Positions 20,938 to 63,066 of a stretch of 64,000 nucleotides of DNA are shown here, piece after piece (the first letter of the stretch is position 1; each line of letters starts with the position of its first letter). The DNA lies in the NCBI GenBank assembly GCA_964291315.2, contig OZ219753.1, positions 224,001 through 288,000 on the forward strand. The letters are read 5' to 3'. The notes beneath the pieces are model-generated. The model was not told the DNA's origin and made no database searches. It was given only the letters and a program-made list of their open reading frames with translations. The position numbers were made by a program, and so were the translations under genes. Origin of the DNA: Candidatus Poribacteria bacterium (GTDB lineage: Bacteria; Poribacteria; WGA-4E; WGA-3G).

Positions 20938-22422
20938 CTAACGCCCTTCGTCAGCGATAATAGAGCCTGGCATGATGTAATGTTTCCCTTTGGTTAGTTG
21001 CGCAACTCTGCGTTGGAAATTATCCGAAATTGAGCTGCTTCGCATAGAGGTGACGCCCCCTATAACATAAATTTTTGCGAACGTCCCTCGGCACACTGAA
21101 ATCGCTTGCCTTACGGTATACCCTTTTTTGGTACGCTTGCTTGTTGATTCATCTGTAACAATGATAAAAACAAGATCGCGCGATGAGTCGATTCGAAGTT
21201 TCGGTATACCCTCAATTACAGCATCTAATAAATGTTCATCACCCATTTTGGGAAGACGAAAGAGGGATTTCACTTGCTCGGGTTCCAGGGGTGGGTTGGT
21301 CACGACAACAGTACTTTCGCCGCCCCCAACTGCTGCCCAAAATCTGATAATTCCAAACCTATAATCCAATCCTGCTGACTTAAATACAGAAACCATCTGA
21401 TCCAAGCCGTCACAGGCAGCATCGGTTTTCGTTTCCATGCTTAGGCTGTAATCGAAGATGAACACAACATCTATTTTTTGCAGATGACTTGCAACCAGGT
21501 TTTCCGCAATACGCTTGAATATACCGTCTAAGCGGAGTAAGGCTTTATCTGCTATTGTATCTCCACTCCGGATCCGTTGTCCATCTATCCGTTGCTGCTT
21601 TGAGTCAATAGGATACCATTTTCCGGCTGTTTCATCTGTAAGCTCCGCTTGGACCCTCTCACTAATACCGATAAAATTGATCTGAACATTGTTTTGACGG
21701 GATCGGCTGATAATTTGATTACTAATTTTGTTTTTCGCTTTTGCGTCTGTCCATGAGGTCCGTATGCGTGAGTTGGTAACCACGACAAATTGCGTTGTAA
21801 CCTCATCGCGGAATTCCAATTCGTTCAGTCCCTTCACAACAGCATCAAGCCCATAGCCTGATCCGGTATTATTCCCCGATTCAACCCTTATATTTTGGAG
21901 TGTATTAACAATACTGAGATAGTCAAATGTCCAGGGATGAAGAGCCACGCGCGGTTCCGCTTGCACCGAGTGAAAACTTACCAGGGCGAATCTGTAGTCC
22001 ATCGTTTTTGCCTCTATAACAGTGAGCATATCAACGATTTTCTTTTCAAGGACAGAGAGATGTGCTCTCATCCGCCTACTACCATCAACCACAAACACGA
22101 CATCTATCTTCGGAGTTTGGGCGTGCTGTGTTGTCCGTTGTGCAATATCTTTGAGACTTGCACCTATATCTGCCTTTAATACCCTCTTTTTTTCTTTGGC
22201 ACTTTGATCTACCATTATTCTGTGTCTTCGGCGAGGGGGGCGGATCTGTGCCGATGCTTGCAGCGTGCCCACTACTATACTCATTACACACAAGCAACAT
22301 ATCCAAATTTTTAGATGCTGCTTACAGACCAAAACTTGCATGATAAAAGCCATATTATCTCCAATCAAAATTCTGTATGAAAACCTGATGCACTTAGCAA
22401 ACATTTCTGTAGTAAACATCAA
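20938..22422 (-). CDS. Exported protein with two tandem vWA domains; true start probably near 22353
   Basis: IDVVFVVDGSRRM and IDVVFIFDYSLSM; VVTN/IVTDE; signal-like segment ending ASA-Q. Confidence 0.75.
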   Translation of the reverse strand: MMFTTEMFAKCIRFSYRILIGDNMAFIMQVLVCKQHLKIWICCLCVMSIVVGTLQASAQIRPPRRRHRIMVDQSAKEKKRVLKADIGASLKDIAQRTTQHAQTPKIDVVFVVDGSRRMRAHLSVLEKKIVDMLTVIEAKTMDYRFALVSFHSVQAEPRVALHPWTFDYLSIVNTLQNIRVESGNNTGSGYGLDAVVKGLNELEFRDEVTTQFVVVTNSRIRTSWTDAKAKNKISNQIISRSRQNNVQINFIGISERVQAELTDETAGKWYPIDSKQQRIDGQRIRSGDTIADKALLRLDGIFKRIAENLVASHLQKIDVVFIFDYSLSMETKTDAACDGLDQMVSVFKSAGLDYRFGIIRFWAAVGGGESTVVVTNPPLEPEQVKSLFRLPKMGDEHLLDAVIEGIPKLRIDSSRDLVFIIVTDESTSKRTKKGYTVRQAISVCRGTFAKIYVIGGVTSMRSSSISDNFQRRVAQLTKGKHYIMPGSIIADEGR

Positions 22423-22602: not shown

Positions 22603-23619
22603 CTAATATGTATCTAAGTCAATTTCTTCTTCGCTAAACCGCAGGTGTGCTTGATTAATGAGCTCAACAATAGCTGTCCACTGCTTCTGCGTTTCATCAG
22701 ATGCACCTTCTGTCTCAAGCAATTTAGCAAACTCAAGGAGAGTTTCGCTAAACTTATTTTGTAGGTAGACATACTCCTCAGTCTGATCTGCATTCTTCGG
22801 AGGCTCGAAATCCGAGATGCTCTTGGCATATTTGGCTAGGCGTTTTGCTGCCTGAATAGCTTCTGTTTTGCTCTCTTTTTCCTCGAAGTAGTCCATAATG
22901 ACAAAATAGTCGTCTATCATCAACGCCATGAGGGCTTTTAGGTCTTCGACCTCGGGTATCTGTTCCGTTGGCGTATCCGGCTCTGGTGTTTTTTCTTCCT
23001 CAAGGCTCGGCTTGTTTTTTCTGAAGAGGGCGTAACTCATTACCAACGCCTTCTTTGGAATCAAAGCGACAGCGTTTGAGGCATCCTCATGTCCTTCAAT
23101 GGCTGTAACGTCTTTCTTAACCTTGAAAAGATTATCTATCCCCATACCGACGAACTGTTTGAGAAATGCCTCTTCTGCAATCGCGGCCGACTCCTTATGG
23201 CGATAGACTGCTATTTTCACAACCTTTCCTTTCATATCCAATCCAACGGCCCCTTCAATTACACCCTGGGGCCCCTTGCTATCGGAAAAAAGCACTAAGC
23301 CCATCGGTTTCTTTTCGTTGTTGATTGGAATGTAGAAAATCGGTTTCAGATCTGTTGTCCGAAGCTTCGTTCCCAGTTTTTCCTCAATTGCGGTGATTTT
23401 CGCTGGGCTGAGTATAACACTTCGCTGAACAAAACGTTTGGCTTTTGGAAACATAACCGCCAGCTTTTGCTTTGGGTATTCTGTTTCATGTGTGTCGCTA
23501 AGTAAGGCAGGGCTTAAAAGAAAAAAGGCAAACGCCAACAAAATACCTATATAGTGTTTATAGCGTTGGCGGTAGATTGGGGCGAGAAATTGAAAACAAA
23601 TCAAATCCCGGGGTTGCAT
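22603..23619 (-). CDS. Exported FMN-binding-like domain fused to a C-terminal four-helix bundle (cytochrome c'/b562-like)
   Basis: KGPQGVIEGAVGLD..G.V and FLKQFVG resemble FMN_bind; Pro/Glu linker; helical tail ending LINQAHLRF. Confidence 0.65.
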   Translation of the reverse strand: MQPRDLICFQFLAPIYRQRYKHYIGILLAFAFFLLSPALLSDTHETEYPKQKLAVMFPKAKRFVQRSVILSPAKITAIEEKLGTKLRTTDLKPIFYIPINNEKKPMGLVLFSDSKGPQGVIEGAVGLDMKGKVVKIAVYRHKESAAIAEEAFLKQFVGMGIDNLFKVKKDVTAIEGHEDASNAVALIPKKALVMSYALFRKNKPSLEEEKTPEPDTPTEQIPEVEDLKALMALMIDDYFVIMDYFEEKESKTEAIQAAKRLAKYAKSISDFEPPKNADQTEEYVYLQNKFSETLLEFAKLLETEGASDETQKQWTAIVELINQAHLRFSEEEIDLDTY

Positions 23620-23623
23620 TATA

Positions 23624-23701
23624 TGCCTCCGTGAAATTAAAACGCAAGAACGCCCGATACCGAGCGAAACTTGCGTTTTGTGCCTCCGTGAAATTAAAAC
23701 G
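23624..23701. repeat. 21-bp direct repeat flanking a hairpin
   Basis: TGCCTCCGTGAAATTAAAACG at 23624-23644 and 23681-23701; hairpin AAAACGCAAG...CTTGCGTTTT at 23639-23679. Confidence 0.85.
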
Positions 23702-24746
23702 AATAGGTTGTAGTCAAAGAAACCAAATTGCCAAATTCAATCGCATCCCCTTCATCATAAAGCGTCTCTTGCGTCAGCGGAATCATCACGTTGGCAGACA
23801 GGCTCATATCGGTCAGTATTTTCAAGGATACACCGAGTGCTGCCATGCTGTAACGTAGACCTGTATTAATGTCCTTCTCGCCAGCCCAGGCAGCAGGGGA
23901 CTGGTAAAGGCCGAGATAGTTTGCATTAAATGTGAACTGATCGAAAAGGCGATATGTCCAACCAGCTGTATAGGTTAACTCTATTGGAGCCCTATAAGTT
24001 TTGCTGTTCTCGTAGATAGGAAACGTTCCACGGCCGGAAGCAGTAAGCGTCATACCTCGGTAGAGCGGTAGACTATACTGCAGACTGGCAGTAGGATTAA
24101 AGGTGCCAGTACCAAACTGGATATGAAGGTGTTCAATACCTGCATCTCCAAGTTTCCACGGATTTTCTTCTGTTTTGCCGGTTGGAATCGTCGCCCCTAA
24201 CCGAGCAAACAGCGTGTCATCTGTTCTAAAAATGCCATGGCTTTTATAACCGAAGAACAGATCTGAATCCGAGAGACCGGTATAGGTTTCATCTCGATGA
24301 TGGATATCCCTACTCCGCAAGATCGCTTGCTCATCTTCAACATTGACTGGGTCAATCCATTCAATGCTTGCGTCTTGATCCTTGACTGCATACGGAATGT
24401 TTGCTTGTAAAAACCAGCGAGCATTAAGTAAGTATTGTAAGCCAACATCAATTCGGTAAGTACTCAAAGTTACACGGTGCCTATGCAAAGGCACGTCTAT
24501 CACTTCCCCTATTGTTGACAACCCTGTCGATGCTAGATGTCCGCCTCGCGCATCGGGGGACATTAACATATTGACATTTACTCGAAATTGCGCTGTCTCT
24601 TTTGAAGTCAAACTGACTTCACTCATCAAACCGCTTGGCGGTAAGACGGGATTGCTTCACGCAGGACAACTCTCTTGTGCGAAGCCGACAGAAATAAAAA
24701 TCCAATTCATTAACAGCGCGTATAAAAACGAACGTATTTTCGTCAT
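23694..24746 (-). CDS. Outer-membrane beta-barrel ('transporter'-type), candidate selenoprotein with TGA at codon 30 in a CxxU motif
   Basis: ATG at 24746 after AGGATGG; MTKIRSFLYALLMNWIFISVGFA-QESCPA(TGA)SNPVLPPSG continues in frame into ORF 23694..24629; PTGK and QFGTGTF motifs; C-terminal TYSF. Confidence 0.75.
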
Positions 24747-24919
24747 TTGTAACCATCCTAATAAAGTATTGTAATGCAGCGAAACACAAGACGCTGCACC
24801 ACAGATTTCCAGCACTAACTTTTATTGTGAGACAGTGCGGAAAAACAGGGTATAAGAATTTCTAAAATAACGGATAGGTGCGTTTGATTTGAAAGGCACC
24901 TTAGGGAGTCTATCTACCG

Positions 24920-25354
24920 CTATGTAGACGGAGGGCCTCTACGGGATAAGAAAAATTCGAGGTAAAATATTGATGTTAGAGGGTCGGAAAGAGGCTCAAG
25001 GCGGTATCGGGGCAGGATAAGCGAACTTGCTGAAATAGGAAGGATTGAAACGGGGACGTATCCAATCAATTCAGGGGAGCCAGATGTGTTGTACCTATCG
25101 TCTGGAAGCACAAGCTCTAAGTTGGTAGAGCAACACAATTTCCTACTTTCTGATGGCGCACTCTCTCCATCCGCAGCGTCTGCTTCGCTTCCGGAGCAGC
25201 AACTTGCGCGAATTTTTACATCCCCATTCAGAAATTTTTGAGGAGATCCGGGACAGAACCGTTGTCCGAAAGCCGTACAAAGAAGCGGGCATACCGAATA
25301 AACGTACAATAGGCCTACAAGTAGGATGAGAGCTTGTCGATGTTTCTGCGACAT
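24920..25354 (-). CDS. DUF2946-like Cys-rich leader protein with C-terminal RGPP
   Basis: N-terminal hydrophobic segment, CPLLC, SCC, LCC, ends SRRGPPST. Confidence 0.65.
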   Translation of the reverse strand: MSQKHRQALILLVGLLYVYSVCPLLCTAFGQRFCPGSPQKFLNGDVKIRASCCSGSEADAADGESAPSESRKLCCSTNLELVLPDDRYNTSGSPELIGYVPVSILPISASSLILPRYRLEPLSDPLTSIFYLEFFLSRRGPPST

Positions 25355-25648
25355 TTTTGTTTAATAACTCCGCTGTTTCGTCAGGAAAGTGGGAACGAAG
25401 TAAACGTTTTGTGATATTATACACCAAAATCTCAAAAAGTTGCAAAAAAACATTTAACTATCTGACACACCAAAAATCTACATGTATTCCAGATTGCAAA
25501 ACTACCTAACCAACACATCGGCACTCCGGGATGATGACTGACGTAGGTGTTTGCAAGCGTTTGCATTGAAACTTGCTAAATGGAGATTTAGAGTACCTAA
25601 CCGCTATAGCGTTCGTGCATTAGGAAGACACAGCTTCCGGCGATTCGG

Positions 25649-27049
25649 TTAAACCTCAACGCGGACGAAAGTTAAATAACTGCCTAACAGAAGCACGATG
25701 AGAAATAGCACTAACAGCAGGAGTTCTGTCGCTGTGCTATCAAAATTGCGCGTCAGACTGCGCGTGTCCTCAAAGACCGGGATGGATTCTGGGATGACAG
25801 CTCGCTGCGACATGCCCTCACGAACCCCTACAAAGTGAAGACTCTCTGGATCTGCCTTGTCGGTATATACGATGAATTCCATGTACTCACGCGCGTACCG
25901 CTGGGCGTTCTCTAAAAATTGAAGATGCCGTTCGAATCCTGTGGCGGCGAACGATTCTAGGAGGTAATGGAAAATCGCAGCGGGCGAAATACGCGTGATG
26001 GAACGCGCACGTTTCACCTGGGCAACCTGGCGGGCTAAGTGTTCATCAATTAAACGTTGCTGTGTCGCTACGTCTTTGATGACATAATCACTTCCGGCCC
26101 GCATATTTTCCTGCTCAGACCCACCCAATGTGTTCCAGTATTTCTCTACTTGTTCTTCATTAACTTGCTTTTGGCGAGCTCGAAGTTCGTCAGCAGACAT
26201 CAAGGGGGCTCGCCTACTAGCAATGGAGGCGAGAAGGTTGGGCGTAAAAACCACAAAGGTAACCCAGGTCAGCAGAAGTATCACTAGTGCTACTACGCTT
26301 CGGCCCACACGCGCCGACACAAGCAACCCTAACGCCAGAAAAATACACATATAAAGAAGTGTAATGCAGTATATAATACCCAAACGTCCCCAACCAGAGG
26401 CACTAATATGAACCGTACTTGCCGTGGAGATCACCAATAAATTCATCAACACAGCAAACGTGAAGGGGATGTTAAGTGTGAAGAGGGCCCCTAAAAATTT
26501 GCCAACTAGCACTACATGGCGCGGCATCGAATTCGTTAGCATCAGTCGCAGCGTACCCCGCTCACGCTCGCTAGACACCGAATCAAAAGTTAACAACAGC
26601 GCGACCAGGCTCAAGATATAGCCGCTGATGAACCCCCAATCCACTTTCATAACCGCTGGTCGAATATTTGTCAGATTCGGGGTAGCAGGTGGATACACCA
26701 TTCGCCAGAAACTCTTTAGATCCCCGTTTACCCAAACATGGTGTTTCCCTTGAACGGTATCTGGCAAAAAGGTATCGCTGCTTGCTGCACAGAAATGGAG
26801 GTCCGAAGGTTTTTTGTAAAGTCTTCCGGGGCCTTGACGCGCTAGTTCGTACAGACTGCCCGTGAGTGTCTCTAAAGCGTTGCGGGCCTCCTCGCTAGCG
26901 GTGAGATACGTTTGTAAGCGCGCGGGGTGTTCTTGCAGATGCACGATGGCGTTCGTCAACATTAATCCCAACAACAGTGCGGTCGTGAGTCCGAATCGGA
27001 GGTTATTGAGGTTGTCATAGAGTTCCCGTTTTGCTATATGCCAAATCAT
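25649..27049 (-). CDS. ABC-2 type transporter permease
   Basis: MIWHIAKREL, DSVSSERERGTLRLML, GKFLG, ISP motif. Confidence 0.85.
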   Translation of the reverse strand: MIWHIAKRELYDNLNNLRFGLTTALLLGLMLTNAIVHLQEHPARLQTYLTASEEARNALETLTGSLYELARQGPGRLYKKPSDLHFCAASSDTFLPDTVQGKHHVWVNGDLKSFWRMVYPPATPNLTNIRPAVMKVDWGFISGYILSLVALLLTFDSVSSERERGTLRLMLTNSMPRHVVLVGKFLGALFTLNIPFTFAVLMNLLVISTASTVHISASGWGRLGIIYCITLLYMCIFLALGLLVSARVGRSVVALVILLLTWVTFVVFTPNLLASIASRRAPLMSADELRARQKQVNEEQVEKYWNTLGGSEQENMRAGSDYVIKDVATQQRLIDEHLARQVAQVKRARSITRISPAAIFHYLLESFAATGFERHLQFLENAQRYAREYMEFIVYTDKADPESLHFVGVREGMSQRAVIPESIPVFEDTRSLTRNFDSTATELLLLVLFLIVLLLGSYLTFVRVEV

Positions 27050-27057
27050 TTTTTTCG

Positions 27058-28578
27058 TTACGTTACTTCTCTTTTGAGAAAAATCAGAAATATTATGATA
27101 AATAGAACAACATTGATTATCAGGAGTAGAAACTGATCAGGCATAGCACGTTTCGCATTTATTCGGATGTCGCTTCTCTGAAAAGTGAATTGGGGGAGTG
27201 TGCTCCAGTCCGCTGCCTCTTCGTGTGCAGTGAACCACTGTGGAGACTCGAACGTTTTTCTATCGTATAAGTAACCGATCACTGTGTTTCTGTATTGTCG
27301 AACCGCCTCGAAAAAGTCTTGATTCCCTTTTAAACCGGTACCTGCCCAGGCTTGGGTTGCCGAGTCGTATATCCCTATTGGAGAAAGTTTGAGCCAGTTT
27401 CTATCAACTACAGCTGGGCGCACGAAGATATCATGGAGCGCAGATTTTCGAGTGATCCAGGTTCGATCTGCTGTGTTAATAACCCGGGGTACGAGGAACC
27501 CATAGTAATTTTGAACGACGGGTATCTGGGGTAGGTATCTATCGTAGAGTTTGTTAAAGTATATTACACTCCAATAGTAATAAGCCAGGGTCGATCGGTC
27601 TCCGCTAAACCCATCGCCGCCACCCCCGCCAGCGGGCCCATCCATGTTAAACATCGGGTCCTCCCCCGGGGCAGTATCAGTTTCGAGAAAGCGTTTCCGC
27701 TCTCTCTCAAATTCTCCCCATATCTGTTTGATTTGATGGTAAACCGCTGATGTACGTGTTTTCGGGGGGGCAATCGGATTTATTGTCGCGAGGATCATGT
27801 TCGGATAGACTAGCACCCAAAATACCCAAACGAACATGCACATAATGAGGGTAGTGCTGGTGCTGCGCGTTATCGCTGAAATCAGCATGCCCATGAGATA
27901 GAATATTGACAGATACGCGATAGAAGCCCAAACAATTCCAGCAACCCGTACAAAATCATCGGACTTTAGGGAAATAGACGCGGATGTCACCATCAAAATC
28001 AGCGCAAAGATCAGACTCACAAGCAACGGAACAAGCAAGCAGAGCATCGCACTGACGTATTTTGCAAGCAGTATCGTCCCCCTACGGACGGGATGCGTCA
28101 AAATCAAACGTAAGGTGCCAGCTTCAATCTCTCCTACAAGAGCATCGTAGGCAAATATGAGTGCAAGTAGACTGAGAACGATCTCAAAAATAAATACAAT
28201 ATCGATCGCAGAGAAGATGTTGAGGAACGAGTTATGTAACCCATGCATCTCAGCGTCCCATAGCGAAGGCACAAATTCATGAGATACCAAGATTTCGTTC
28301 CCGATCCGTTTATCTAAGCCTGCATTGAAGATGCTCATAGGATTGGGGGGCCTGTCAACTTGCAGTTTTCTTATCCCCAATGAATAGGTTTTTGTATCGT
28401 GTACTTCTTGATGATGTGTTTTAACGGAGGTGTCGTAACTCGCTAACCGCTGATCGTAGTCATTGATGAGCACAAAAGTAGCAGCAACCACTAGCGTCAA
28501 CATAATAAAGACAGCTGCTACGAAACGGAAAGTCATCAGGTTGTCGAGGAGTTCACGCCGAATGAGTGGGATTAACAT
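27058..28578 (-). CDS. ABC-2 type transporter permease (paralogue)
   Basis: LIRRELLDN, YDALVGEIEAGTLRLIL, AKYVS, LSP motif. Confidence 0.85.
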   Translation of the reverse strand: MLIPLIRRELLDNLMTFRFVAAVFIMLTLVVAATFVLINDYDQRLASYDTSVKTHHQEVHDTKTYSLGIRKLQVDRPPNPMSIFNAGLDKRIGNEILVSHEFVPSLWDAEMHGLHNSFLNIFSAIDIVFIFEIVLSLLALIFAYDALVGEIEAGTLRLILTHPVRRGTILLAKYVSAMLCLLVPLLVSLIFALILMVTSASISLKSDDFVRVAGIVWASIAYLSIFYLMGMLISAITRSTSTTLIMCMFVWVFWVLVYPNMILATINPIAPPKTRTSAVYHQIKQIWGEFERERKRFLETDTAPGEDPMFNMDGPAGGGGGDGFSGDRSTLAYYYWSVIYFNKLYDRYLPQIPVVQNYYGFLVPRVINTADRTWITRKSALHDIFVRPAVVDRNWLKLSPIGIYDSATQAWAGTGLKGNQDFFEAVRQYRNTVIGYLYDRKTFESPQWFTAHEEAADWSTLPQFTFQRSDIRINAKRAMPDQFLLLIINVVLFIIIFLIFLKREVT

Positions 28579-28934: not shown

Positions 28935-29897
28935 ATGCCATATGTCAAGATTCCAAAGGAATGGGAAATCCCCGAAGATCCGGTAACGTCTGAGGTAGAC
29001 TATATCAATCGCAGGAAATTCATCAAAGATTTAGGCTTGGCGAGTGCAAGTATGTTACTTTTTTCCGGATCAAGTGCTTGTGCAGCTGAAAAGGGAGTTG
29101 AGAAACAGTTGGCTCCCTTCCGTGCCCAAGGCCTTGCTGCTGAAAAGAACTCTGCCTTTGCTGTAAATAGGAAAATGACTGACGAAATAGTTGCTGCTAC
29201 CTACAATAATTACTATGAGTTTACTATGTCTAAGCGGACTGTTTGGAAAAAAGTAGAAAAATTCAGAACACGTCCGTGGGAGGTCGAGATATCAGGGCTC
29301 GTCGAAAAACCGATGACTTTGGACGTAGATGACTTAATCAGACAGATGCCACTCGAAGAACGTGTCTATCGGTTCCGTTGTGTTGAGGCATGGGCAATGG
29401 TGGTACCTTGGATCGGCTTCCCGATGAAAGCACTGCTGGAAAAAGTTCAGCCGAAAGCCGAAGCTAAATATGTCCGAATGTTCACTTTTTTGGACCCCGA
29501 TGTCGCTCTTGAGCAAAACAACACGCGTTTACCGTGGCCCTATTTTGAAGGCCTCACACTCGCTGAGTCAATGAACGACCTGACACTGCTCACTGTCGGT
29601 ATTTATGGGCATATTTTACCACCACAGCACGGTGCTCCCATACGGCTTATTGTGCCTTGGAAGTACGGGTTCAAAAGCATAAAGTCCATCGTCAGCATCG
29701 AATTGACGGATCAGAAACCACGCACTTTTTGGAATACACTTATGCCGAGAGCATATAGCTTTGAAGCAAATGTCAACCCTAACGTACCACATCCGAACTG
29801 GTCGCAAGCTAGCGAGAGAATGATTGGGACTGGAGAAAGGTTCCCGACGATGATTTACAACGGCTATGGGAGCTCTGTCGCGCACCTCTATCCCTAA
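28935..29897 (+). CDS. msrP: Protein-methionine-sulfoxide reductase catalytic subunit
   Basis: Tat motif NRRKFIK, YNNYYEF, RFRCVEAW, GAPIRLIVPWKYGFKSIKSI. Confidence 0.93.
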   Translation: MPYVKIPKEWEIPEDPVTSEVDYINRRKFIKDLGLASASMLLFSGSSACAAEKGVEKQLAPFRAQGLAAEKNSAFAVNRKMTDEIVAATYNNYYEFTMSKRTVWKKVEKFRTRPWEVEISGLVEKPMTLDVDDLIRQMPLEERVYRFRCVEAWAMVVPWIGFPMKALLEKVQPKAEAKYVRMFTFLDPDVALEQNNTRLPWPYFEGLTLAESMNDLTLLTVGIYGHILPPQHGAPIRLIVPWKYGFKSIKSIVSIELTDQKPRTFWNTLMPRAYSFEANVNPNVPHPNWSQASERMIGTGERFPTMIYNGYGSSVAHLYP

Positions 29898-59111: not shown

Positions 59112-59528
59112 TTAAGATGAAGTCTGCCGACCAACGCCTTCCTCTTCACATTGGGGACAGGTGTTGCACAGGTGCCTATTTACGAGATGCGCAGATGCCA
59201 ATAGAATGCCGCCTACACTGTGGAAGACAACCTCAAATGTACCTTCAATCGTCGTCCGCCCAATAATAATAAATGCTAGCGCCACTACTAGTATCAGAAA
59301 CGCGCGCCAACTTCTATGGTGACGAACACCCCACGCTAAACTTCCAACTGCAAGCGCAGCTGCTACGGTGATTATAGTCTTTTCGGCAGACTCAGTCGCG
59401 AGGAATCCCAAACCAACTAGGGGCAAAACTACTATCCAAAATGGCATCGCAAGGCAATGCACTGCACATGCAAAAGAGAGGCATGCGCCGGTGTTATCTA
59501 CTAATGCTTGATTAAAACGAGTTTTCAA
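59112..59528 (-). CDS. MerC-domain membrane protein
   Basis: D..GACLSFACAVHCLA motif, SAHLVN; TTG start after GGAGG. Confidence 0.85.
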   Translation of the reverse strand: MKTRFNQALVDNTGACLSFACAVHCLAMPFWIVVLPLVGLGFLATESAEKTIITVAAALAVGSLAWGVRHHRSWRAFLILVVALAFIIIGRTTIEGTFEVVFHSVGGILLASAHLVNRHLCNTCPQCEEEGVGRQTSS

Positions 59529-59594
59529 TGGGCCTCCTAAAAAAACGAAGGCGAAGAATTTACTTCGGGCTCATTCCTCGCCTTCTCCTTTGAA

Positions 59595-61859
59595 CTAAAA
59601 ATTAAGTTTGTATAGAAATTTCAGATTCCGCCCGGGTTCTGGCATCACCAATTTGATACGAGACAAATGTTCACGGTATTCTGTGTCAAGAAGATTCTCA
59701 ATCTCGAAAACCAACGTGTTGCCAACCTGCAGCCACGAAAAATTAAAGTGGCACCCGACATCATACACGACATATCCATCGGTCGCTTCCTCAAATTCTC
59801 CGAGACGCGTCTGGCTTCCTGAAAAACGGCTGTTTGCGTAGAAATGAAACGGTGAAGGAGTGTAGCTCAAACCCACCTTTCCATTGAACGGCGGAATACG
59901 CTCCAAGGGACGACCACTGCTTTCAATCGTTCCATCAACGTAACTCATGTTGAGCTGCAGATGGATTTGTGGAATCACCTCGCCACTCAGCTGAAGCTCG
60001 GCACCGTTCATCACAACATCGTGTTCCATATACTGATAAATCCACAACCATCCGGCAGCACCGCTACCCCACTCTTTTTTACCCGTCTGGGTTGGAGCGA
60101 GGTAGTTAGAGATGCGGTTTTGAAACACAGCCAAATTCAGTTTGAACCTATCAGCTGAATATCTTGCAAAGAATTCTGCACCGTAACCGGCCTCAGGTTG
60201 AAGCTCCGCATTGCCAATTTCATACGAAAACACCGCCAGATGCGGACCATCGCTGAAGAGCTCCTCAATGCCCGGAGCCCGAAAAGTCTTCATCAAAGTA
60301 ACACCGGTACTGAACCTATCGCTCCAATCGTAAATGCCAGAGCTTGCTCCTGATACCCCGTTGAAATCACGACGCTGAACAGTTCCGGCTCGGATAACCG
60401 TGCCGGGTCTAAACGGTTCTGAACGCCTAACATCGTAACGGATTGCTCCTTGTAACGTGAATTTATCGAAGTTATGCTGATTTAGATAAAAGCCGGCGGC
60501 TGCGAATTCTCGGGTGTGCGGAGTCCAGTAGAACCCGCCTGTTGCATGATCCCGATATTCACCAGATATGCCCGTAATCGCATTGCCCAAGCCATAAGCC
60601 ATCGCTGAAAAATTGTAAGTGAGCAGGCCAAATTCCACACCTAATGACCCGTTTGACTCTAGCTCTTGATGCTGATAACGAGTATAGGCAGACTGGATTT
60701 TTACCTTCTCAAGCAGTGATCTATTAAAACGATACTCCAGCTGGCCCTCATAACGTTGGCGTTCCAACTCAATATTAACACCGCTAATATGACCTTCCGG
60801 CGACCCCGGAACACCGTAATCGGAACGGTAACTGCTCCCAGAGACACCGATGAAACCCCAAGGCCTAATCAACGAAGTACCGCCTGAAACATTAACGTTC
60901 GAAAGTGACGTATTGTCGATCGCACCTATTGGTGTTTCTGTATCAGCCGCAAGCCGCCGATTCCATTCTAAATTTCCGGCAAAATTACCGACCGGAATCG
61001 TCAAACCCGTCGTACCTGTCAACCCTGAATTCACAGATTCACCTTGAAATGTTAAGTTCATATTGACTTGTTCGGGTAAAATTTGACGGATGTTGTTGCT
61101 TTTGACATTGATAATCCCACCCAATGTGCTCGAACCATACAGAAATGATGCCGGCCCCCGCACGATCTCAATACTTTCCGCAGTCGTGGGATCAATCGAT
61201 ACAACATGATCAGCACTAGATGCTGATTTATCACCAGTACGCTCACCGTTTTCAAGGATAAGCAGCCTGTTCCCCCCTAAACCACGAATCACAGGGCGCG
61301 CAATCGCTCGCCCCATCGTCCGTTGCGATACACCGATCTCGTTCGCCAACGTGTTTGCTAAGGTCATACCAACCCGTTTTTCAAGCTCAGCCTCTCCGAG
61401 CACTAAATCGGTAGTCCTCTCAAGCTGGGAAAGCTCGCGCTTCCAACCATAAACCCAAAGCGTTTCTAATTGAAACGGGAGTTCCTCCAACGAAATCTGA
61501 ATATGAGGAGTTGACGCATCAACAGCTATCGTCCGTTCAAACTGACGATAACCGACTTTCATAAAGCGAAACGTTTGCAGACCCTCCGGCACTTCCGAAA
61601 GCTTAAATTGACCATTCGCATCGGTCTTCACACCCCTTTCAAGCCCACTAACACGCACAGTAACCCCAACGAGACGTATGTGACTACGGGATGCAACAAC
61701 CGTTCCCACAAGGCTCCGCGTTGGACCTTGAACACTTTCATCATCGCCAAAGCAGGAACAGAGACATATGAACTCCGTCATCAACACGAATAGGTAGGGA
61801 TACTTAAAAAGCATCCCTACTACTGAAGAACGGCGCGAACAGCTACAAGGCTGTAACAT
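59595..61859 (-). CDS. TonB-dependent receptor (ZnuD-like) with N-terminal carboxypeptidase-regulatory-like domain
   Basis: RPVIRGLGGNR, SADH, IEIVRGPASFLYGS, ELFSDGPH, ENLLDTEYREHLS...PGRN, C-terminal Phe. Confidence 0.9.
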   Translation of the reverse strand: MLQPCSCSRRSSVVGMLFKYPYLFVLMTEFICLCSCFGDDESVQGPTRSLVGTVVASRSHIRLVGVTVRVSGLERGVKTDANGQFKLSEVPEGLQTFRFMKVGYRQFERTIAVDASTPHIQISLEELPFQLETLWVYGWKRELSQLERTTDLVLGEAELEKRVGMTLANTLANEIGVSQRTMGRAIARPVIRGLGGNRLLILENGERTGDKSASSADHVVSIDPTTAESIEIVRGPASFLYGSSTLGGIINVKSNNIRQILPEQVNMNLTFQGESVNSGLTGTTGLTIPVGNFAGNLEWNRRLAADTETPIGAIDNTSLSNVNVSGGTSLIRPWGFIGVSGSSYRSDYGVPGSPEGHISGVNIELERQRYEGQLEYRFNRSLLEKVKIQSAYTRYQHQELESNGSLGVEFGLLTYNFSAMAYGLGNAITGISGEYRDHATGGFYWTPHTREFAAAGFYLNQHNFDKFTLQGAIRYDVRRSEPFRPGTVIRAGTVQRRDFNGVSGASSGIYDWSDRFSTGVTLMKTFRAPGIEELFSDGPHLAVFSYEIGNAELQPEAGYGAEFFARYSADRFKLNLAVFQNRISNYLAPTQTGKKEWGSGAAGWLWIYQYMEHDVVMNGAELQLSGEVIPQIHLQLNMSYVDGTIESSGRPLERIPPFNGKVGLSYTPSPFHFYANSRFSGSQTRLGEFEEATDGYVVYDVGCHFNFSWLQVGNTLVFEIENLLDTEYREHLSRIKLVMPEPGRNLKFLYKLNF

Positions 61860-61871
61860 GAACCTTTCTCC

Positions 61872-62516
61872 TTATTGAACGGTTACCGGTATCGGTAGGG
61901 CCGCCGTGAAGTCCGCATGATCGCCGTGAAGGAGCTGGAGTCTGATTTCCGTTGTACCTGCTTTCAGTCCGGTGATTTCGAACCGTGCGAAAGCCTCTTC
62001 AACATGTTCATCATGCCCGGGTTCTTCATGTTCATGTTCATCATGTTCATCATGCTCATCATGCTCATCATGCTCATGTTCCGCTTCGTCTTCAGACATG
62101 TGGATCTCAATCACAGTAGAATCATAGCCTGTTAAACTCAAGGCGAAAGCCTCTTCTTCGGCGTGATCATGGTCGTGATCATGGTCGTGTTCCTCTTCAC
62201 CAATATGGGTTTCAGTGCCGCTTGCGTTAAGAAACACTACATGCACTTCAATTTCTTCGCCAACTCCAACTGTAAGCCCTCCTGTTTCGCTACCTTGGAA
62301 CTGCCGATACACTTCAGTTTCTCCAACTTCCAAAACGAAGCCGTCTGCATCAGCATGAAAAGGAGCAGGTTCTTCTTCGCCGTGGTCGTGGTCATCAACA
62401 ATAGGGTTGTCATCTGCCCCGCAACCACCAATAAACGGGAGCGCGGCGACGAAAGCCAGTAATAGGCATTGAGAAATAGCGACAGAAAAGTCGCCTCTAG
62501 AAAAATACATAAACAT
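61872..62516 (-). CDS. His/Glu-rich lipoprotein (putative metal chaperone)
   Basis: Lipobox IGGC; HDHDHDHDH and (EHD)n tracts encoded by 6- and 9-nt tandem repeats. Confidence 0.8.
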   Translation of the reverse strand: MFMYFSRGDFSVAISQCLLLAFVAALPFIGGCGADDNPIVDDHDHGEEEPAPFHADADGFVLEVGETEVYRQFQGSETGGLTVGVGEEIEVHVVFLNASGTETHIGEEEHDHDHDHDHAEEEAFALSLTGYDSTVIEIHMSEDEAEHEHDEHDEHDEHDEHEHEEPGHDEHVEEAFARFEITGLKAGTTEIRLQLLHGDHADFTAALPIPVTVQ

Positions 62517-62730
62517 TACATTCCCCTTTTTTCTCAGAGGGCAGTTATAATCTGCTCCTCTTCACTATATAAAATTAGTAATAAACCGCTCTAACATATC
62601 AATATTAAAGATACATAGAGCTTATCCGGTCAGCGCAATACTTCAGGGCCACATAGAGTTCACGCCATCGCAGCTACCCATACGTGGAGGTATTGCAGAA
62701 TATCTAACAAATTTTGTCTTTAACTAATGG

Positions 62731-63066
62731 CTATTGGGAGTTCATCGGAGAAGGCGGGGGGGCGCGACCGCGCGTGTTCGCGGGAAGCTCCAAGGGGAGA
62801 AATAGGGTTTGATAGGGTGGAGACGTGGTGCCAAAAAGAGATGGAAGAATGAGAGCACAGGTTGTGACTTCAACGCTAACATGCTGACTGTTATATAAAC
62901 AGGCCGTACACTCCTCTTCAGAGTGTACATGTGCGGTATGCTCGTGCATCAGGGCAATGAGACTCAGCATCACGAGAAGAAAGCATAAACCTATTGCGAT
63001 GCAGATTTTTAAGTTTTGCCCAAATGTTAGCGTTAGCATTTCGCGAAAAGCATTGTTGTTTTTCAT
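62731..63066 (-). CDS. DUF2946-like leader protein with CxxC and C-terminal RAPP
   Basis: TM segment, HEHTAHVH, CTAC, ends RGRAPPPSP; upstream of the TBDR operon. Confidence 0.75.
   Translation of the reverse strand: MKNNNAFREMLTLTFGQNLKICIAIGLCFLLVMLSLIALMHEHTAHVHSEEECTACLYNSQHVSVEVTTCALILPSLFGTTSPPYQTLFLPLELPANTRGRAPPPSPMNSQ

What the first reader, a model, noticed from the sequence alone, without database searches (positions are those of the whole stretch)
22603..25354. Candidate new metal/redox uptake system: RGPP leader, CxxU outer-membrane barrel and FMN-bind/cytochrome-like fusion
Seen: three co-oriented genes, namely a Cys-rich exported leader ending RGPP, a beta-barrel with N-terminal CPAU, and a periplasmic two-domain protein. 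Established: DUF2946 uORFs with CxxC and RAPP-like arrest motifs (CruR/CutF type) control downstream metal-import genes, and FMN-bind domains act in extracytoplasmic electron transfer. Inference: a TonB-independent, selenol-gated channel for a soft metal (for example Cu or Zn) or a redox substrate, with a dedicated periplasmic acceptor. I do not recognise this combination as described.
Basis: partly seen in the sequence, partly recalled or inferred. Interest (0 to 1): 0.85.

Follow-up and report, generated by a model that had tools for sequence, protein, structure and literature searches.

The report
Stalling leader plus selenocysteine outer-membrane metal channel
A sponge-associated bacterium carries an operon in which a small cysteine-rich leader ending in a ribosome-stalling motif precedes an outer-membrane channel with a selenocysteine on its flexible tip, most likely a regulated gate for copper- or mercury-like metals.

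Summary
g1 (25354..24920) is a 144-aa membrane-anchored, Cys-rich protein ending RRGPPST. The barrel (24746..23694) has an in-frame TGA (24659..24657) giving C-P-A-U straight after its signal peptide. g3 (23619..22603) follows.

The TGA is almost certainly selenocysteine. It is kept in frame across Poribacteria. Bacteroidota relatives read CPAC, Acidobacteriota UPAU and a paralogue UGAU. The genome has selA, selB, selD and tRNA-Sec, and a covarying hairpin follows the codon.

The barrel is a 12-strand COG4313/FapF-like channel that matches no curated family above its cut-off. Its relatives sit in metal loci: mer operons and HMA-thioredoxin genes in Bacteroidota and Acidobacteriota, and Cus-type efflux genes in 22 of 31 Poribacteria loci.

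g1 precedes the barrel in 31 of 31 orthologous loci. It works like CruR/CutF, with RGPP aligned to RAPP in relatives and a fixed Cys-to-motif spacing, but it is not a DUF2946 member by HMM.

g3 is optional (6 of 31 loci). It lacks the flavin-attachment residue and any haem c motif.

Not shown: whether the Sec tip sits in the lumen, transport direction, and which metal.

This scan noted the same barrel family before on other DNA (e1-3211065, e1-707723). The leader link is new here.

The parts
25416..25445 (-). Promoter-like site (TTGCAA-18-TATAAT, 10 of 12) about 60 nt upstream of g1
   Evidence: This is a consensus match only; 2 sites were found in the region against 5.7 expected from shuffles, so it is weak evidence.
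24920..25354 (-). g1: 144-aa membrane-anchored Cys-rich leader protein (C22, C26, C34, C52-53, C74-75) ending RRGPPST*
   Evidence: An RGPP-ending ORF lies upstream of the barrel in 31 of 31 CPAU loci. Identity among relatives is about 50%, with invariant Cys and R[AG]PP. No Pfam or NCBIfam family matches.
24929..24940 (-). RGPP codons (AGA GGC CCT CCG): candidate ribosome-arrest core, 3 residues before the stop
   Evidence: RGPP aligns with RAPP in the leaders of paralogous loci L072-L074; L075's leader also ends in RAPP. The spacing from the last CC to R is 62-64 aa in 34 of 34 leaders. The motif is depleted genome-wide. RAPP and RGPP are named as robust arrest cores in the abstract of PMC12992588.
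24747..24919 (-). 173-nt structured spacer between g1 and the barrel, with C>G skew running from the 3' part of g1
   Evidence: Fold z-score -3.78 with 0 of 200 shuffles as stable. Hairpins are conserved across 22 loci, and 6 pairs show compensatory change. Spacer length is 161-202 nt in 24 of 31 loci and 302-425 nt in 7. C is 0.33-0.36 against G 0.12-0.17 around 25081-24964.
23694..24746 (-). Barrel gene: signal peptide (1-23), flexible N-terminal arm QESCPAUSNPVLPPSG..., then a 12-strand outer-membrane beta-barrel with conserved His motifs (IHHRDE, HLHIQFGTGTF)
   Evidence: AF2 gives pLDDT 88.4 and pTM 0.82. Foldseek finds FapF (E 1.6e-12) and the COG4313 channel 4rl8 (E 2.6e-11). Pfam PF13557 scores 21.5 bits against a cut-off of 22.
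24657..24659 (-). In-frame TGA read as selenocysteine (residue 30 of the precursor; motif C-P-A-U)
   Evidence: The aligned residue is Cys in Bacteroidota (CPAC) and Sec in Acidobacteriota (UPAU). Both motif positions are Sec in the paralogue (UGAU).
24603..24648 (-). Two hairpins just downstream of the UGA: candidate SECIS
   Evidence: (z -3.66). In one search, on 33 sequences from three groups, the second hairpin is conserved with 8 pairs, 5 of them with compensatory change. No Rfam family matches.
23614..23701 (.). Barrel-g3 junction: 31-nt direct repeat (90% identical, spacing 57) around a 10-bp hairpin; one copy overlaps the barrel's stop codon and the other overlaps g3's start codon
   Evidence: Read as a possible junction scar of a swapped downstream module (inference).
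22603..23619 (-). g3: exported 338-aa protein with a degenerate FMN_bind/RnfG-like domain and a C-terminal four-helix bundle (223-336)
   Evidence: It follows the barrel in 6 of 31 loci.
20938..22422 (-). von Willebrand A-domain protein, same strand, always after g3 where g3 is present
   Evidence: Pfam VWA E 7.9e-11. The gene order 27>(44>)19> is seen in WIN, L107, L110, L113, L124 and L125.

Best explanation
This is a leader-controlled outer-membrane channel operon for a thiophilic metal, most likely Cu(I), possibly Hg(II) or Ag(I). g1 is inserted into the inner membrane as it is made. Its periplasm-facing Cys clusters sense the metal while the ribosome reaches the C-terminal RGPP arrest core. 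Whether the ribosome stays stalled there decides, through the structured and C-rich 173-nt spacer, whether the barrel and the genes behind it are expressed. This could work by Rho access as in CruR, or by RNA remodelling as in CutF. The barrel is a passive 12-strand channel without a TonB plug. Its conserved His-rich loops would form the metal path. Its flexible periplasmic N-terminal arm carries a Cys-x-x-Sec pair that takes up or hands over the metal, like the disordered metal-binding N-terminus of PcoB. Selenocysteine would give tighter and faster soft-metal exchange than Cys. In most relatives the same leader-barrel pair heads a Cus-type efflux operon, and the Cys form lies in mer operons. 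I therefore think the unit is switched on by excess metal and serves detoxification rather than nutrient uptake. Shown: gene structure, Sec coding, conservation, fold, and gene neighbourhoods. Inferred: arrest, metal sensing, metal identity, transport direction, and the role of the arm.
For: Sec coding:
- The in-frame TGA is kept across the phylum.
- Cys and Sec alternate at both motif positions: CPAC in 21 of 22 Bacteroidota loci; UPAU in 4 Acidobacteriota loci and 1 unclassified locus; CPAU in 31 loci; UGAU in 19; CGAU or CAAU in 3.
- Full-length Cys homologues exist.
- selB scores 329 bits, tRNA-Sec 78 bits, selD 357 bits and selA 589 bits, all over their cut-offs.
- A hairpin after the UGA covaries.
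- Folding downstream of the codon is stronger in Sec genes (mean z -2.2 to -2.5) than in Cys genes (-1.2).

Metal link:
- One homologue (P0256) is fused to an HMA domain (E 5e-11).
- Invariant His columns include H172, H173, H229 and H231.
- A cluster-1 (HMA-containing) gene lies immediately upstream of the barrel in 21 of 21 Bacteroidota loci where my ORF caller found the barrel, and in 4 Acidobacteriota loci. It was HMA-thioredoxin in all 7 that I inspected.
- MerA (TIGR02053, 501 bits) lies within 7 kb in 5 of 22 Bacteroidota loci. MerT-HMA, a MerP-like protein, ArsR and a GDCCVxC protein were also found.
- In Poribacteria, 22 of 31 loci continue with YHS, two OEP genes and a CusB-like gene with three HMBD repeats.

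Leader:
- It is present in 31 of 31 loci.
- RGPP aligns with RAPP.
- The CC-to-motif spacing is 62-64 aa in 34 of 34 leaders.
- The motif is depleted in the genome.
- CruR shows parallel features: 145 aa, exported, RAPP 3 residues from the end, a 162-bp spacer, a C>G bubble and an outer-membrane transporter next (passages of PMC9426467).
- For CutF, Cu-induced stalling during secretion opens the RBS (abstract of 10.1101/2025.02.05.636593).
- A second RAPP leader in this window heads a His-rich protein, TonB receptor and MerC operon.

Fold and analogue:
- Searches give the fold.
- PcoB's disordered N-terminus is needed for Cu resistance (abstract of PMC12509749).
Against: - No experiment or expression data exist, and no RNA run was listed.
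- The CPAU arm has pLDDT<50, so its position is unknown.
- g1 is not recognised by the DUF2946 HMM. Its Cys pattern is CC pairs and CPxLC, 62-64 aa from the motif, which differs from CruR's CXXC at 45 aa.
- No Rfam SECIS model matches. The hairpin conserved across groups lies about 38-56 nt after the UGA, farther than I recall as typical for bacterial SECIS elements. The nearer hairpin is not in the same register in all groups.
- In this particular genome no efflux, HMA or mer gene lies next to the barrel. No close Cus-type module or HMA-thioredoxin was found elsewhere in the genome, which is 95% complete. The metal link therefore rests on relatives.
- MerA was seen within 7 kb in only 5 of 22 Bacteroidota loci.
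- CxxC and UxxU are also classical redox motifs.
- Induction by metal, rather than repression, is argued only from the downstream genes of relatives.
Confidence: 0.6

Rival explanations
1. This is a nutrient copper-uptake unit with CruR-type logic. Without metal the ribosome stalls at RGPP and the barrel is made. Metal sensed by g1 relieves the stall, and Rho then terminates in the C-rich spacer. The barrel would import scarce Cu, and g3 would act as its periplasmic receiver or reductase.
For: The layout matches cruR-bfrG-bp2921 in leader size, motif position, spacer length and C>G bubble. In this genome the barrel is not next to any efflux gene. The second RAPP leader in the window precedes a TonB-dependent receptor. 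The COG4313 family is described as uptake channels (abstract of PMC4493636).
Against: In 22 of 31 orthologous loci the same leader and barrel are followed on the same strand by Cus-type efflux genes, which one expects to be induced rather than repressed by metal. The Cys-form relatives lie in mer resistance operons. g3 is present in only 6 of 31 loci.
Confidence: 0.2
2. The CxxU/UxxU motif is a redox centre, not a metal site. The barrel would be an outer-membrane thiol/selenol oxidoreductase or a channel for a redox-active non-metal substrate such as a polysulfide, a selenium compound or an oxidant. Thioredoxin-type partners, or g3, would keep it reduced.
For: CxxC, CxxU and UxxU are classical redox motifs in most catalogued selenoproteins (table passages of PMC13188914). 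A thioredoxin domain is fused to the neighbouring HMA protein. g3 has an RnfG/FMN_bind-like domain and a cytochrome-like bundle. An MsrP-type molybdoenzyme gene lies 3.6 kb away.
Against: The barrel is fused to HMA in one relative, and six conserved His residues are typical of metal sites. Its neighbours are MerA, MerT, MerP, GDCCVxC, CopA-type ATPase, YHS and a CusB-like protein with HMBD repeats. g3 lacks the flavinylation residue and haem c motif.
Confidence: 0.12
3. g1 is an ordinary small membrane protein, for example a metal chaperone or an assembly factor of the barrel. Its RGPP would be structural, with no regulatory arrest.
For: g1 is conserved along its whole length, not only at the C-terminus. 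Acidobacteriota relatives share the TM and Cys pattern but end ...FRI or ...LRI without R[AG]PP.
Against: R[AG]PP is the only C-terminal element kept between leaders that are only about 20% identical, and it switches between the two strongest known arrest cores. The spacing to the Cys pair is fixed. The motif is 5- to 6-fold depleted in the genome. The spacer is long, conserved and structured.
Confidence: 0.08

Closest known systems
CruR (Bp2923) of Bordetella pertussis and CutF of Rhodobacter capsulatus (Pfam DUF2946 leaders)
   Same: All are small exported or membrane proteins of about 145 aa. All have Cys residues at a fixed distance from a C-terminal R-A/G-P-P arrest core a few residues before the stop. 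All are the first gene of a metal operon. CruR and g1 share a spacer of about 160-200 nt with C>G skew before an outer-membrane transporter.
   Different: The DUF2946 HMM gives no match. The motif is RGPP instead of RAPP in the orthologues. The Cys pattern is CPxLC in the TM segment plus two CC pairs, not CXXC. The spacing is 62-64 aa, not 45. The downstream transporter is a 12-strand selenoprotein barrel rather than a TonB-dependent receptor or a multicopper oxidase. Arrest has not been tested.
COG4313 / Phenol_MetA_deg (PF13557) channels (Pput2725, PDB 4rl8) and FapF (PDB 5o65)
   Same: All are 12-strand barrels of about 300 residues with an N-terminal segment ahead of strand 1. Foldseek gives E 2.6e-11 (TM 0.55/0.69) to 4rl8 and E 1.6e-12 to FapF. 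The Pfam score is borderline, and some homologues carry a precomputed PF13557 label.
   Different: The score is below the Pfam gathering cut-off. The known members take up hydrophobic molecules or secrete amyloid (abstract of PMC4493636; PDB entry titles). This clade has a CxxC/CxxU/UxxU tip, invariant His motifs and metal-gene neighbours.
PcoB outer-membrane copper protein
   Same: Both are outer-membrane barrels in a copper resistance operon. Both have a disordered, metal-ligand-rich N-terminal region that matters for function (abstract of PMC12509749; title of PMC9210255 from the search listing).
   Different: No sequence or fold relation was tested or found here. The PcoB arm is rich in His and Met, not Cys and Sec. 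PcoB is not a selenoprotein, and I know of no leader peptide for it (recalled).
Catalogued metal-related bacterial selenoproteins (UxxU metal-binding HMA protein NF041115, MerT-type, GDCCVxC NF041374, FCYXU-type TonB-dependent receptor NF049945)
   Same: All have Sec in place of a metal-ligand Cys, often as CxxU or UxxU, in Hg/Cu-handling proteins. One of them is an outer-membrane receptor (table passages of PMC13188914; NCBIfam hits).
   Different: The barrel matches none of these models. It does not appear in the parts of the 2026 review's table that I read. It is a different fold, a plug-less 12-strand barrel.

Membership tests
Bacterial selenoprotein (UGA = Sec) | In-frame UGA conserved among orthologues | tested here: met
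   One search lists '1 TGA' for the orthologue rows and '2 TGA' for the paralogue rows. One search finds CPAU in 31 of 31 orthologous loci.
Bacterial selenoprotein (UGA = Sec) | Homologues with Cys at the aligned position | tested here: met
   P0244, P0249, P0256 and P0260 read CPAC; P0318, P0359 and P0361 read CAAC. 21 of 22 Bacteroidota loci read CPAC.
Bacterial selenoprotein (UGA = Sec) | SECIS hairpin directly downstream of the UGA | tested here: inconclusive
   Hairpins are present (z -3.66). One is conserved, with 5 of 8 pairs compensatory. Its distance from the UGA is unusual, the nearer hairpin varies in register, and no Rfam model matches.
Bacterial selenoprotein (UGA = Sec) | selA, selB, selC and selD in the genome | tested here: met
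   All score over their curated cut-offs.
Bacterial selenoprotein (UGA = Sec) | Selenium shown in the protein | not testable with these tools
   Needs 75Se labelling or mass spectrometry.
DUF2946 (CruR/CutF) leaders | Match to Pfam PF11162 | tested here: not met
   g1 matches 0 Pfam families at E<=1. PF11162 finds nothing in the whole genome at E<=10.
DUF2946 (CruR/CutF) leaders | C-terminal RAPP-type arrest motif a few residues before the stop | tested here: met
   RGPP plus 2-4 residues in 30 leaders and RAPP plus 9 residues in 4.
DUF2946 (CruR/CutF) leaders | CXXC motif at a conserved distance (about 45 aa) from the arrest motif | tested here: not met
   The spacing is conserved, but at 62-64 aa and from a CC pair, not a CXXC.
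DUF2946 (CruR/CutF) leaders | Metal-dependent translation arrest | not testable with these tools
   Needs toeprinting or reporter assays.
COG4313 / PF13557 outer-membrane channels | Pfam score over the gathering cut-off | tested here: not met
   21.5 bits against a cut-off of 22. This is borderline. Five of the 120 listed homologues carry a precomputed PF13557 label.
COG4313 / PF13557 outer-membrane channels | 12-strand barrel similar to Pput2725 | tested here: met
   DSSP shows 12 strands. 4rl8 scores E 2.6e-11 with TM 0.55/0.69.
COG4313 / PF13557 outer-membrane channels | N-terminal segment occluding the lumen | tested here: inconclusive
   Residues 12-48 have pLDDT<50 and are not placed.
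FMN_bind (PF04205) / RnfG-NqrC type (g3) | Pfam or NCBIfam score over the cut-off | tested here: not met
   21.4 bits against 22; RnfG 19.6 against 102. The PDB RnfG profile gives E 0.08.
FMN_bind (PF04205) / RnfG-NqrC type (g3) | Conserved Ser/Thr for covalent FMN (SGAT-type motif; the motif is recalled, not from a call) | tested here: not met
   The aligned stretch reads [ED]G[HYDAQ][EAKQ].AS, and the position is variable.
Cytochrome b562 / c' four-helix bundle (g3 C-terminus) | Four-helix bundle fold | tested here: inconclusive
   Z 11.4-12.8 to Kusta0087/88, cytochrome c' and b562. The tool warns that Z under about 13 is common for helical bundles.
Cytochrome b562 / c' four-helix bundle (g3 C-terminus) | Haem ligation (CxxCH for c'; Met on helix 1 plus His on helix 4 for b562; ligands recalled) | tested here: inconclusive
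   There is no CxxCH and no Cys after the signal peptide. Invariant M231, M234 and H325 lie at b562-like places. Haem binding was not tested.

The most novel reading that the evidence does not exclude
A selenolate relay at the outer membrane. This would be a family of plug-less 12-strand channels, spread over at least three phyla, that moves Hg(II), Cu(I) or Ag(I) across the outer membrane by ligand exchange on a tethered CxxC/CxxU/UxxU arm plus a His-lined pore. It would be the missing outer-membrane component of mer-type and Cus-type systems. In Poribacteria it would be switched by a non-DUF2946 nascent-chain sensor that reads periplasmic metal through Cys pairs placed 62-64 residues before an RGPP or RAPP arrest core.
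Probability: 0.35. Interest if true: 0.85.

Novelty: new variant of a known kind. Interest (0 to 1): 0.74.

Why it matters
If this holds, three things follow.

1. It adds an outer-membrane channel family to the list of selenoproteins. Gene callers truncate it everywhere: all 120 listed homologues start after the TGA and so lack a signal peptide.
2. It gives mercury and copper systems a dedicated outer-membrane component. The passage I read of the standard mer model draws passage across the outer layer as diffusion.
3. It extends metal-sensing arrest leaders beyond DUF2946 and Proteobacteria, with a natural RGPP/RAPP pair. The Cys, CxxU and UxxU forms of one protein also offer a clean natural experiment on what selenium adds to soft-metal handling.

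Tried and rejected
- **Expression data.** The look-up of sequencing runs listed no RNA holder, only 3 runs of one study of unrecorded kind. Read laying was not run, so there is no evidence either way on expression.
- **Rfam.** No family at gathering score in the window. Only a chance-level hit near the UGA at E<=10.
- **TGA as a true stop, with the barrel starting at TTG 24629.** Rejected. The barrel would lack a signal peptide, the upstream frame is conserved as protein, and Cys homologues are continuous.
- **TGA read as Trp or Gly.** Two database entries show W there (P0290, P0313). I read these as gene calls made under another code, because the aligned residue in uninterrupted homologues is Cys.
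- **g1 as a DUF2946 member.** Rejected by HMM.
- **SD sequestration.** In the single-sequence fold the barrel's SD pairs with an upstream segment, but the consensus fold of 22 loci does not keep this pairing, so I do not claim it.
- **g3 structure.** The whole-protein model is poor (pLDDT 53). Only the C-terminal bundle could be used.
- **The search for related loci with the wide alignment A1** failed for lack of a conserved stretch. It was repeated with the narrower A2.
The Atlas look-up of g3 returned only its own Poribacteria cluster.
- **The careful tree** did not finish. The quick tree is quoted, rooted at the midpoint only, so I make no claim about which state (Cys or Sec) is ancestral.
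- **Supplementary tables** of the CruR and RAPP/RGPP papers were not seen. They may list leaders of this kind.


Full report
**What is there.**
All genes of the finding lie on the minus strand.
- g1 (25354..24920) encodes 144 aa. It has a hydrophobic segment at residues 8-26 (mean hydropathy 2.37), seven Cys, and the C-terminus ...FLSRRGPPST*.
- A 173-nt spacer follows.
- The barrel gene starts at ATG 24746 and ends at 23694. It holds one in-frame TGA (24659..24657), so the precursor reads MTKIRSFLYALLMNWIFISVGFA|QESCPAUSNPVLPPSG....
- g3 (23619..22603, 338 aa) starts 74 nt after the barrel's stop.
- A VWA-domain gene (22422..20938) follows on the same strand.
- A promoter-like site lies about 60 nt upstream of g1 (weak evidence).

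Names attached to close homologues place the genome in Candidatus Poribacteria.

**The TGA is a selenocysteine codon.**
- The genome has selB (329 bits), an adjacent tRNA-Sec (78 bits), selD (357 bits, itself with one in-frame TGA) and selA (589 bits). All are above their curated cut-offs.
- In a sample of 151 genomes of the phylum, 122 have a barrel homologue. The listed orthologue rows read through exactly one TGA, and a paralogue group at about 55% identity reads through two.
- The paralogue in this genome reads AFAQESUGAUSNP.
- In 80 loci fetched from public genomes, the four-residue motif after the signal peptide is as follows:
  - CPAC in 21 of 22 Bacteroidota loci (the regular expression found none in L057);
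  - UPAU in four Acidobacteriota loci and in L070;
  - UAAU in L109;
  - CPAU in 30 loci, 31 with the window;
  - UGAU in 19;
  - CGAU or CAAU in 3.
- Uninterrupted Cys homologues also came from the representative search (CPAC or CAAC).
- Every one of the 120 listed database homologues of the barrel is called as a roughly 310-aa protein starting after the TGA, and so lacks a signal peptide.
- Downstream of the UGA there are two hairpins (z -3.66). Across 33 sequences from the three groups, the second hairpin is conserved with 8 pairs, 5 of which show compensatory changes.
- Sec genes fold more strongly here than Cys genes (mean z -2.2 to -2.5 against -1.2).
- Caveats: no Rfam model matches. 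The conserved hairpin lies about 38-56 nt after the UGA, farther than I recall as usual. The nearer hairpin changes register between groups.

**What the barrel is.**
- Pfam gives only a sub-threshold match to Phenol_MetA_deg (21.5 against 22 bits). NCBIfam gives nothing.
- AlphaFold2 on a 78-sequence alignment gives a confident model (pLDDT 88.4, pTM 0.82). It is a 12-strand barrel from about residue 54. Residues 12-48, including CPAU, are below pLDDT 50.
- Foldseek's best solved matches are FapF (E 1.6e-12) and the COG4313 channel Pput2725 (4rl8, E 2.6e-11, TM 0.55/0.69).
- In Pput2725 the N-terminal segment occludes the lumen (abstract of PMC4493636).
- Columns invariant across nine distant homologues include C, A, C/U, N and P of the tip, and H93, H113, H172, H173, H229 and H231 (P0001 numbering).
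- From the strand order of the model, the IHHRxE and HxHIQFGTG motifs lie in the long loops between strands 3-4 and 5-6. I infer that these loops line the pore.

**Metal context.**
- One homologue (P0256) carries a C-terminal HMA domain (E 5e-11).
- I called ORFs and clustered the neighbours in 81 loci.
- In Bacteroidota, a cluster-1 gene lies immediately upstream of the barrel in 21 of 21 loci where the barrel was called. The same holds in four Acidobacteriota loci. Cluster 1 is a single-linkage cluster of HMA proteins.
- In the seven cases I inspected, the gene was a signal peptide + HMA + thioredoxin fusion.
- Bacteroidota loci also hold the following:
  - MerA (TIGR02053, 501 bits; 5 of 22 loci within 7 kb);
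  - a MerT-HMA fusion and a MerP-like protein;
  - an ArsR-type regulator (11 members in the cluster);
  - a GDCCVxC (seleno)protein;
  - a CsoR/RicR-like repressor;
  - a CopA-type ATPase.
- In Poribacteria CPAU loci, 22 of 31 continue on the same strand with a YHS protein, two OEP (TolC-like) genes and a CusB-like adaptor with three HMBD repeats.
- Eight of 31 continue with a YtkA-like His/Met-rich protein and/or g3. One contig ends after the barrel.
- This genome has the g3 version. It has no close copy of the Cus-type module or of the HMA-thioredoxin gene elsewhere (completeness 95%).
- In a quick tree rooted at the midpoint, the CPAU proteins form one clade (support 100) nested among UGAU Poribacteria. 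The CPAC Bacteroidota proteins form one clade (support 99).

**The leader.**
- An RGPP-ending ORF lies upstream of the barrel in 31 of 31 CPAU loci. The spacer is 161-202 nt in 24 loci and 302-425 nt in 7.
- The first set of 30 loci gave 29 of 30 by tblastn. L029 was not found there.
- Leaders are about 50% identical to each other, with invariant Cys positions and [HR]RGPP.
- Four loci of the paralogous barrel (L072-L075) have a leader that is only about 20% identical. These end ...PRAPPHS...SHI, and in the three that were aligned (L072-L074) RAPP falls on RGPP.
- The distance from the last CC pair to the Arg of the motif is 62-64 residues in 34 of 34 leaders.
- In about 3326 long ORFs of this genome, RGPP occurs 2 times (11.4 expected) and RAPP 2 times (13.5 expected). 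Only five ORFs of 60-250 aa have R[AG]PP within 15 residues of the end. I judge only two of these to look like genes: g1 and a second leader in this same window.
- The abstract of PMC12992588 states that RAPP and RGPP are the most robust arrest cores. [quoted passage not shown]
- The CruR paper (passages read) describes a 145-aa exported protein with CXXC 45 residues before a RAPP that sits three residues from the end. A 162-bp spacer with a C>G bubble follows, then a TonB-dependent transporter and a PepSY_TM protein. In that system copper relieves arrest and allows Rho termination.
- The CutF preprint (abstract) describes the opposite logic: Cu-induced stalling during secretion melts a hairpin over the next gene's RBS.
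- Here the spacer is strongly structured (z -3.78) and has conserved hairpins. C exceeds G from the 3' part of g1 into the spacer.
- g1 is not a DUF2946 member: 0 Pfam families, and PF11162 finds nothing in the genome at E<=10.
- Acidobacteriota loci have a small TM + Cys-rich ORF with a similar pattern (SCAL[AT]CP, CC, C.xTNF) before the HMA-thioredoxin gene, but it ends ...FRI or ...LRI without the motif.

**g3.**
- g3's homologues (525 hits; the named ones among the best 120 are Poribacteria) are about 70% identical.
- FMN_bind scores just under its cut-off, and RnfG is far under.
- The position that should hold the flavinylated Thr (motif recalled) is variable.
- The whole model is poor (pLDDT 53), but residues 223-336 form a four-helix bundle with pLDDT about 80-90.
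- The bundle's best matches are Kusta0087/88, cytochromes c' and b562 (Z 11.4-12.8, rmsd 2.3-2.8 over about 105 residues). The tool says this range is common for helical bundles.
- There is no CxxCH. Invariant M231, M234 and H325 sit where b562 has its haem ligands (recalled). This is a lead only.
- The barrel-g3 junction holds a 31-nt direct repeat around a 10-bp hairpin. I read this as a possible scar of module exchange.

**How it most likely works, and what is known.**
- I commit to a leader-controlled, passive outer-membrane channel for a thiophilic metal with a Cys-Sec acceptor arm.
- I think it is switched on by excess metal. The reason is that the same leader-barrel pair heads efflux operons in most relatives, and the Cys form sits in mer operons.
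- PcoB is a functional analogue: an outer-membrane barrel whose disordered metal-ligand-rich N-terminus is needed for copper resistance (abstract of PMC12509749).
- The 2026 review of prokaryotic selenoproteins lists MerT-type, UxxU HMA, GDCCVxC and an FCYXU-type TonB receptor. In the passages I read it lists no COG4313-like barrel. Its table was read in passages, not whole.
- The mer survey PMC8261052 mentions no outer-membrane barrel in the passages found.
- Two earlier follow-ups of this scan reached the same reading of the barrel on other DNA (e1-3211065 and e1-707723). Two others described RAPP/RGPP leaders in other phyla.
- I re-derived the barrel result independently here. The leader-barrel coupling, the RGPP/RAPP alignment and the fixed spacing were not in the notes that one search returned.

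**Verdict.**
This is a new variant built from known kinds: an arrest leader, a COG4313-type barrel and a metal-ligand selenoprotein. Direction of transport, the metal and the arrest itself remain to be tested.

Noticed in passing
window 59112-63066 (minus strand): There is a second arrest-type leader operon in this window. It starts with a 111-aa ORF (63066..62731) that has a TM segment, HEHTAHVH, a CTAC motif and a C-terminal ...RGRAPPPSPMNSQ. Next come a His/Asp/Glu-rich protein (62516..61872, no Pfam match), a TonB-dependent receptor (61859..59595) and a MerC-family protein (59528..59112). This layout is CruR-like, yet the leader matches no Pfam family.
   Followed up: partly
G000:C4:674615-675694 (+) = L047 4613..5698: A paralogous barrel has two in-frame TGAs (AFAQESUGAUSNP), which gives a UxxU form. 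It stands without a leader or g3, between an aldo-keto-reductase-like gene and an ABC substrate-binding protein gene; both neighbours were named by eye from the translations. In most genus-level genomes both copies are present.
   Followed up: partly
window 23614-23701: A 31-nt direct repeat (90% identical, spacing 57) flanks a 10-bp inverted repeat in the barrel-g3 spacer. One copy overlaps the barrel's stop codon and the other overlaps g3's start codon.
   Followed up: partly
L071 3891-4238, L077 5709-6122, L082 5580-6188: Acidobacteriota loci carry a small TM + Cys-rich ORF (SCAL[AT]CP, CC, C.xTNF) upstream of the HMA-thioredoxin gene and the UPAU barrel. It resembles g1 but ends ...FRI...LRI or ...FLI instead of R[AG]PP.
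   Followed up: no
G000:C4:721940-722863 (-) = L128: The selD gene of this genome itself reads through one in-frame TGA, so SelD is probably a selenoprotein here.
   Followed up: no
L113 7297-8826 and relatives (cluster 44): In the g3-type loci of other genomes, a 509-aa protein with an N-terminal CNVCH (CxxCH) motif lies between g3 and the VWA gene. A YtkA-like His/Met-rich protein lies between the barrel and g3. Both are missing in this window.
   Followed up: no
window 25649-28578 (minus strand) and 28935-29897 (+): Two ABC-2-type permease genes with DUF3526, and no ATPase gene beside them, lie directly upstream of g1 on the same strand; they are not conserved at this place in relatives. 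A molybdopterin oxidoreductase gene (MsrP-like by eye) lies divergently beyond them.
   Followed up: no
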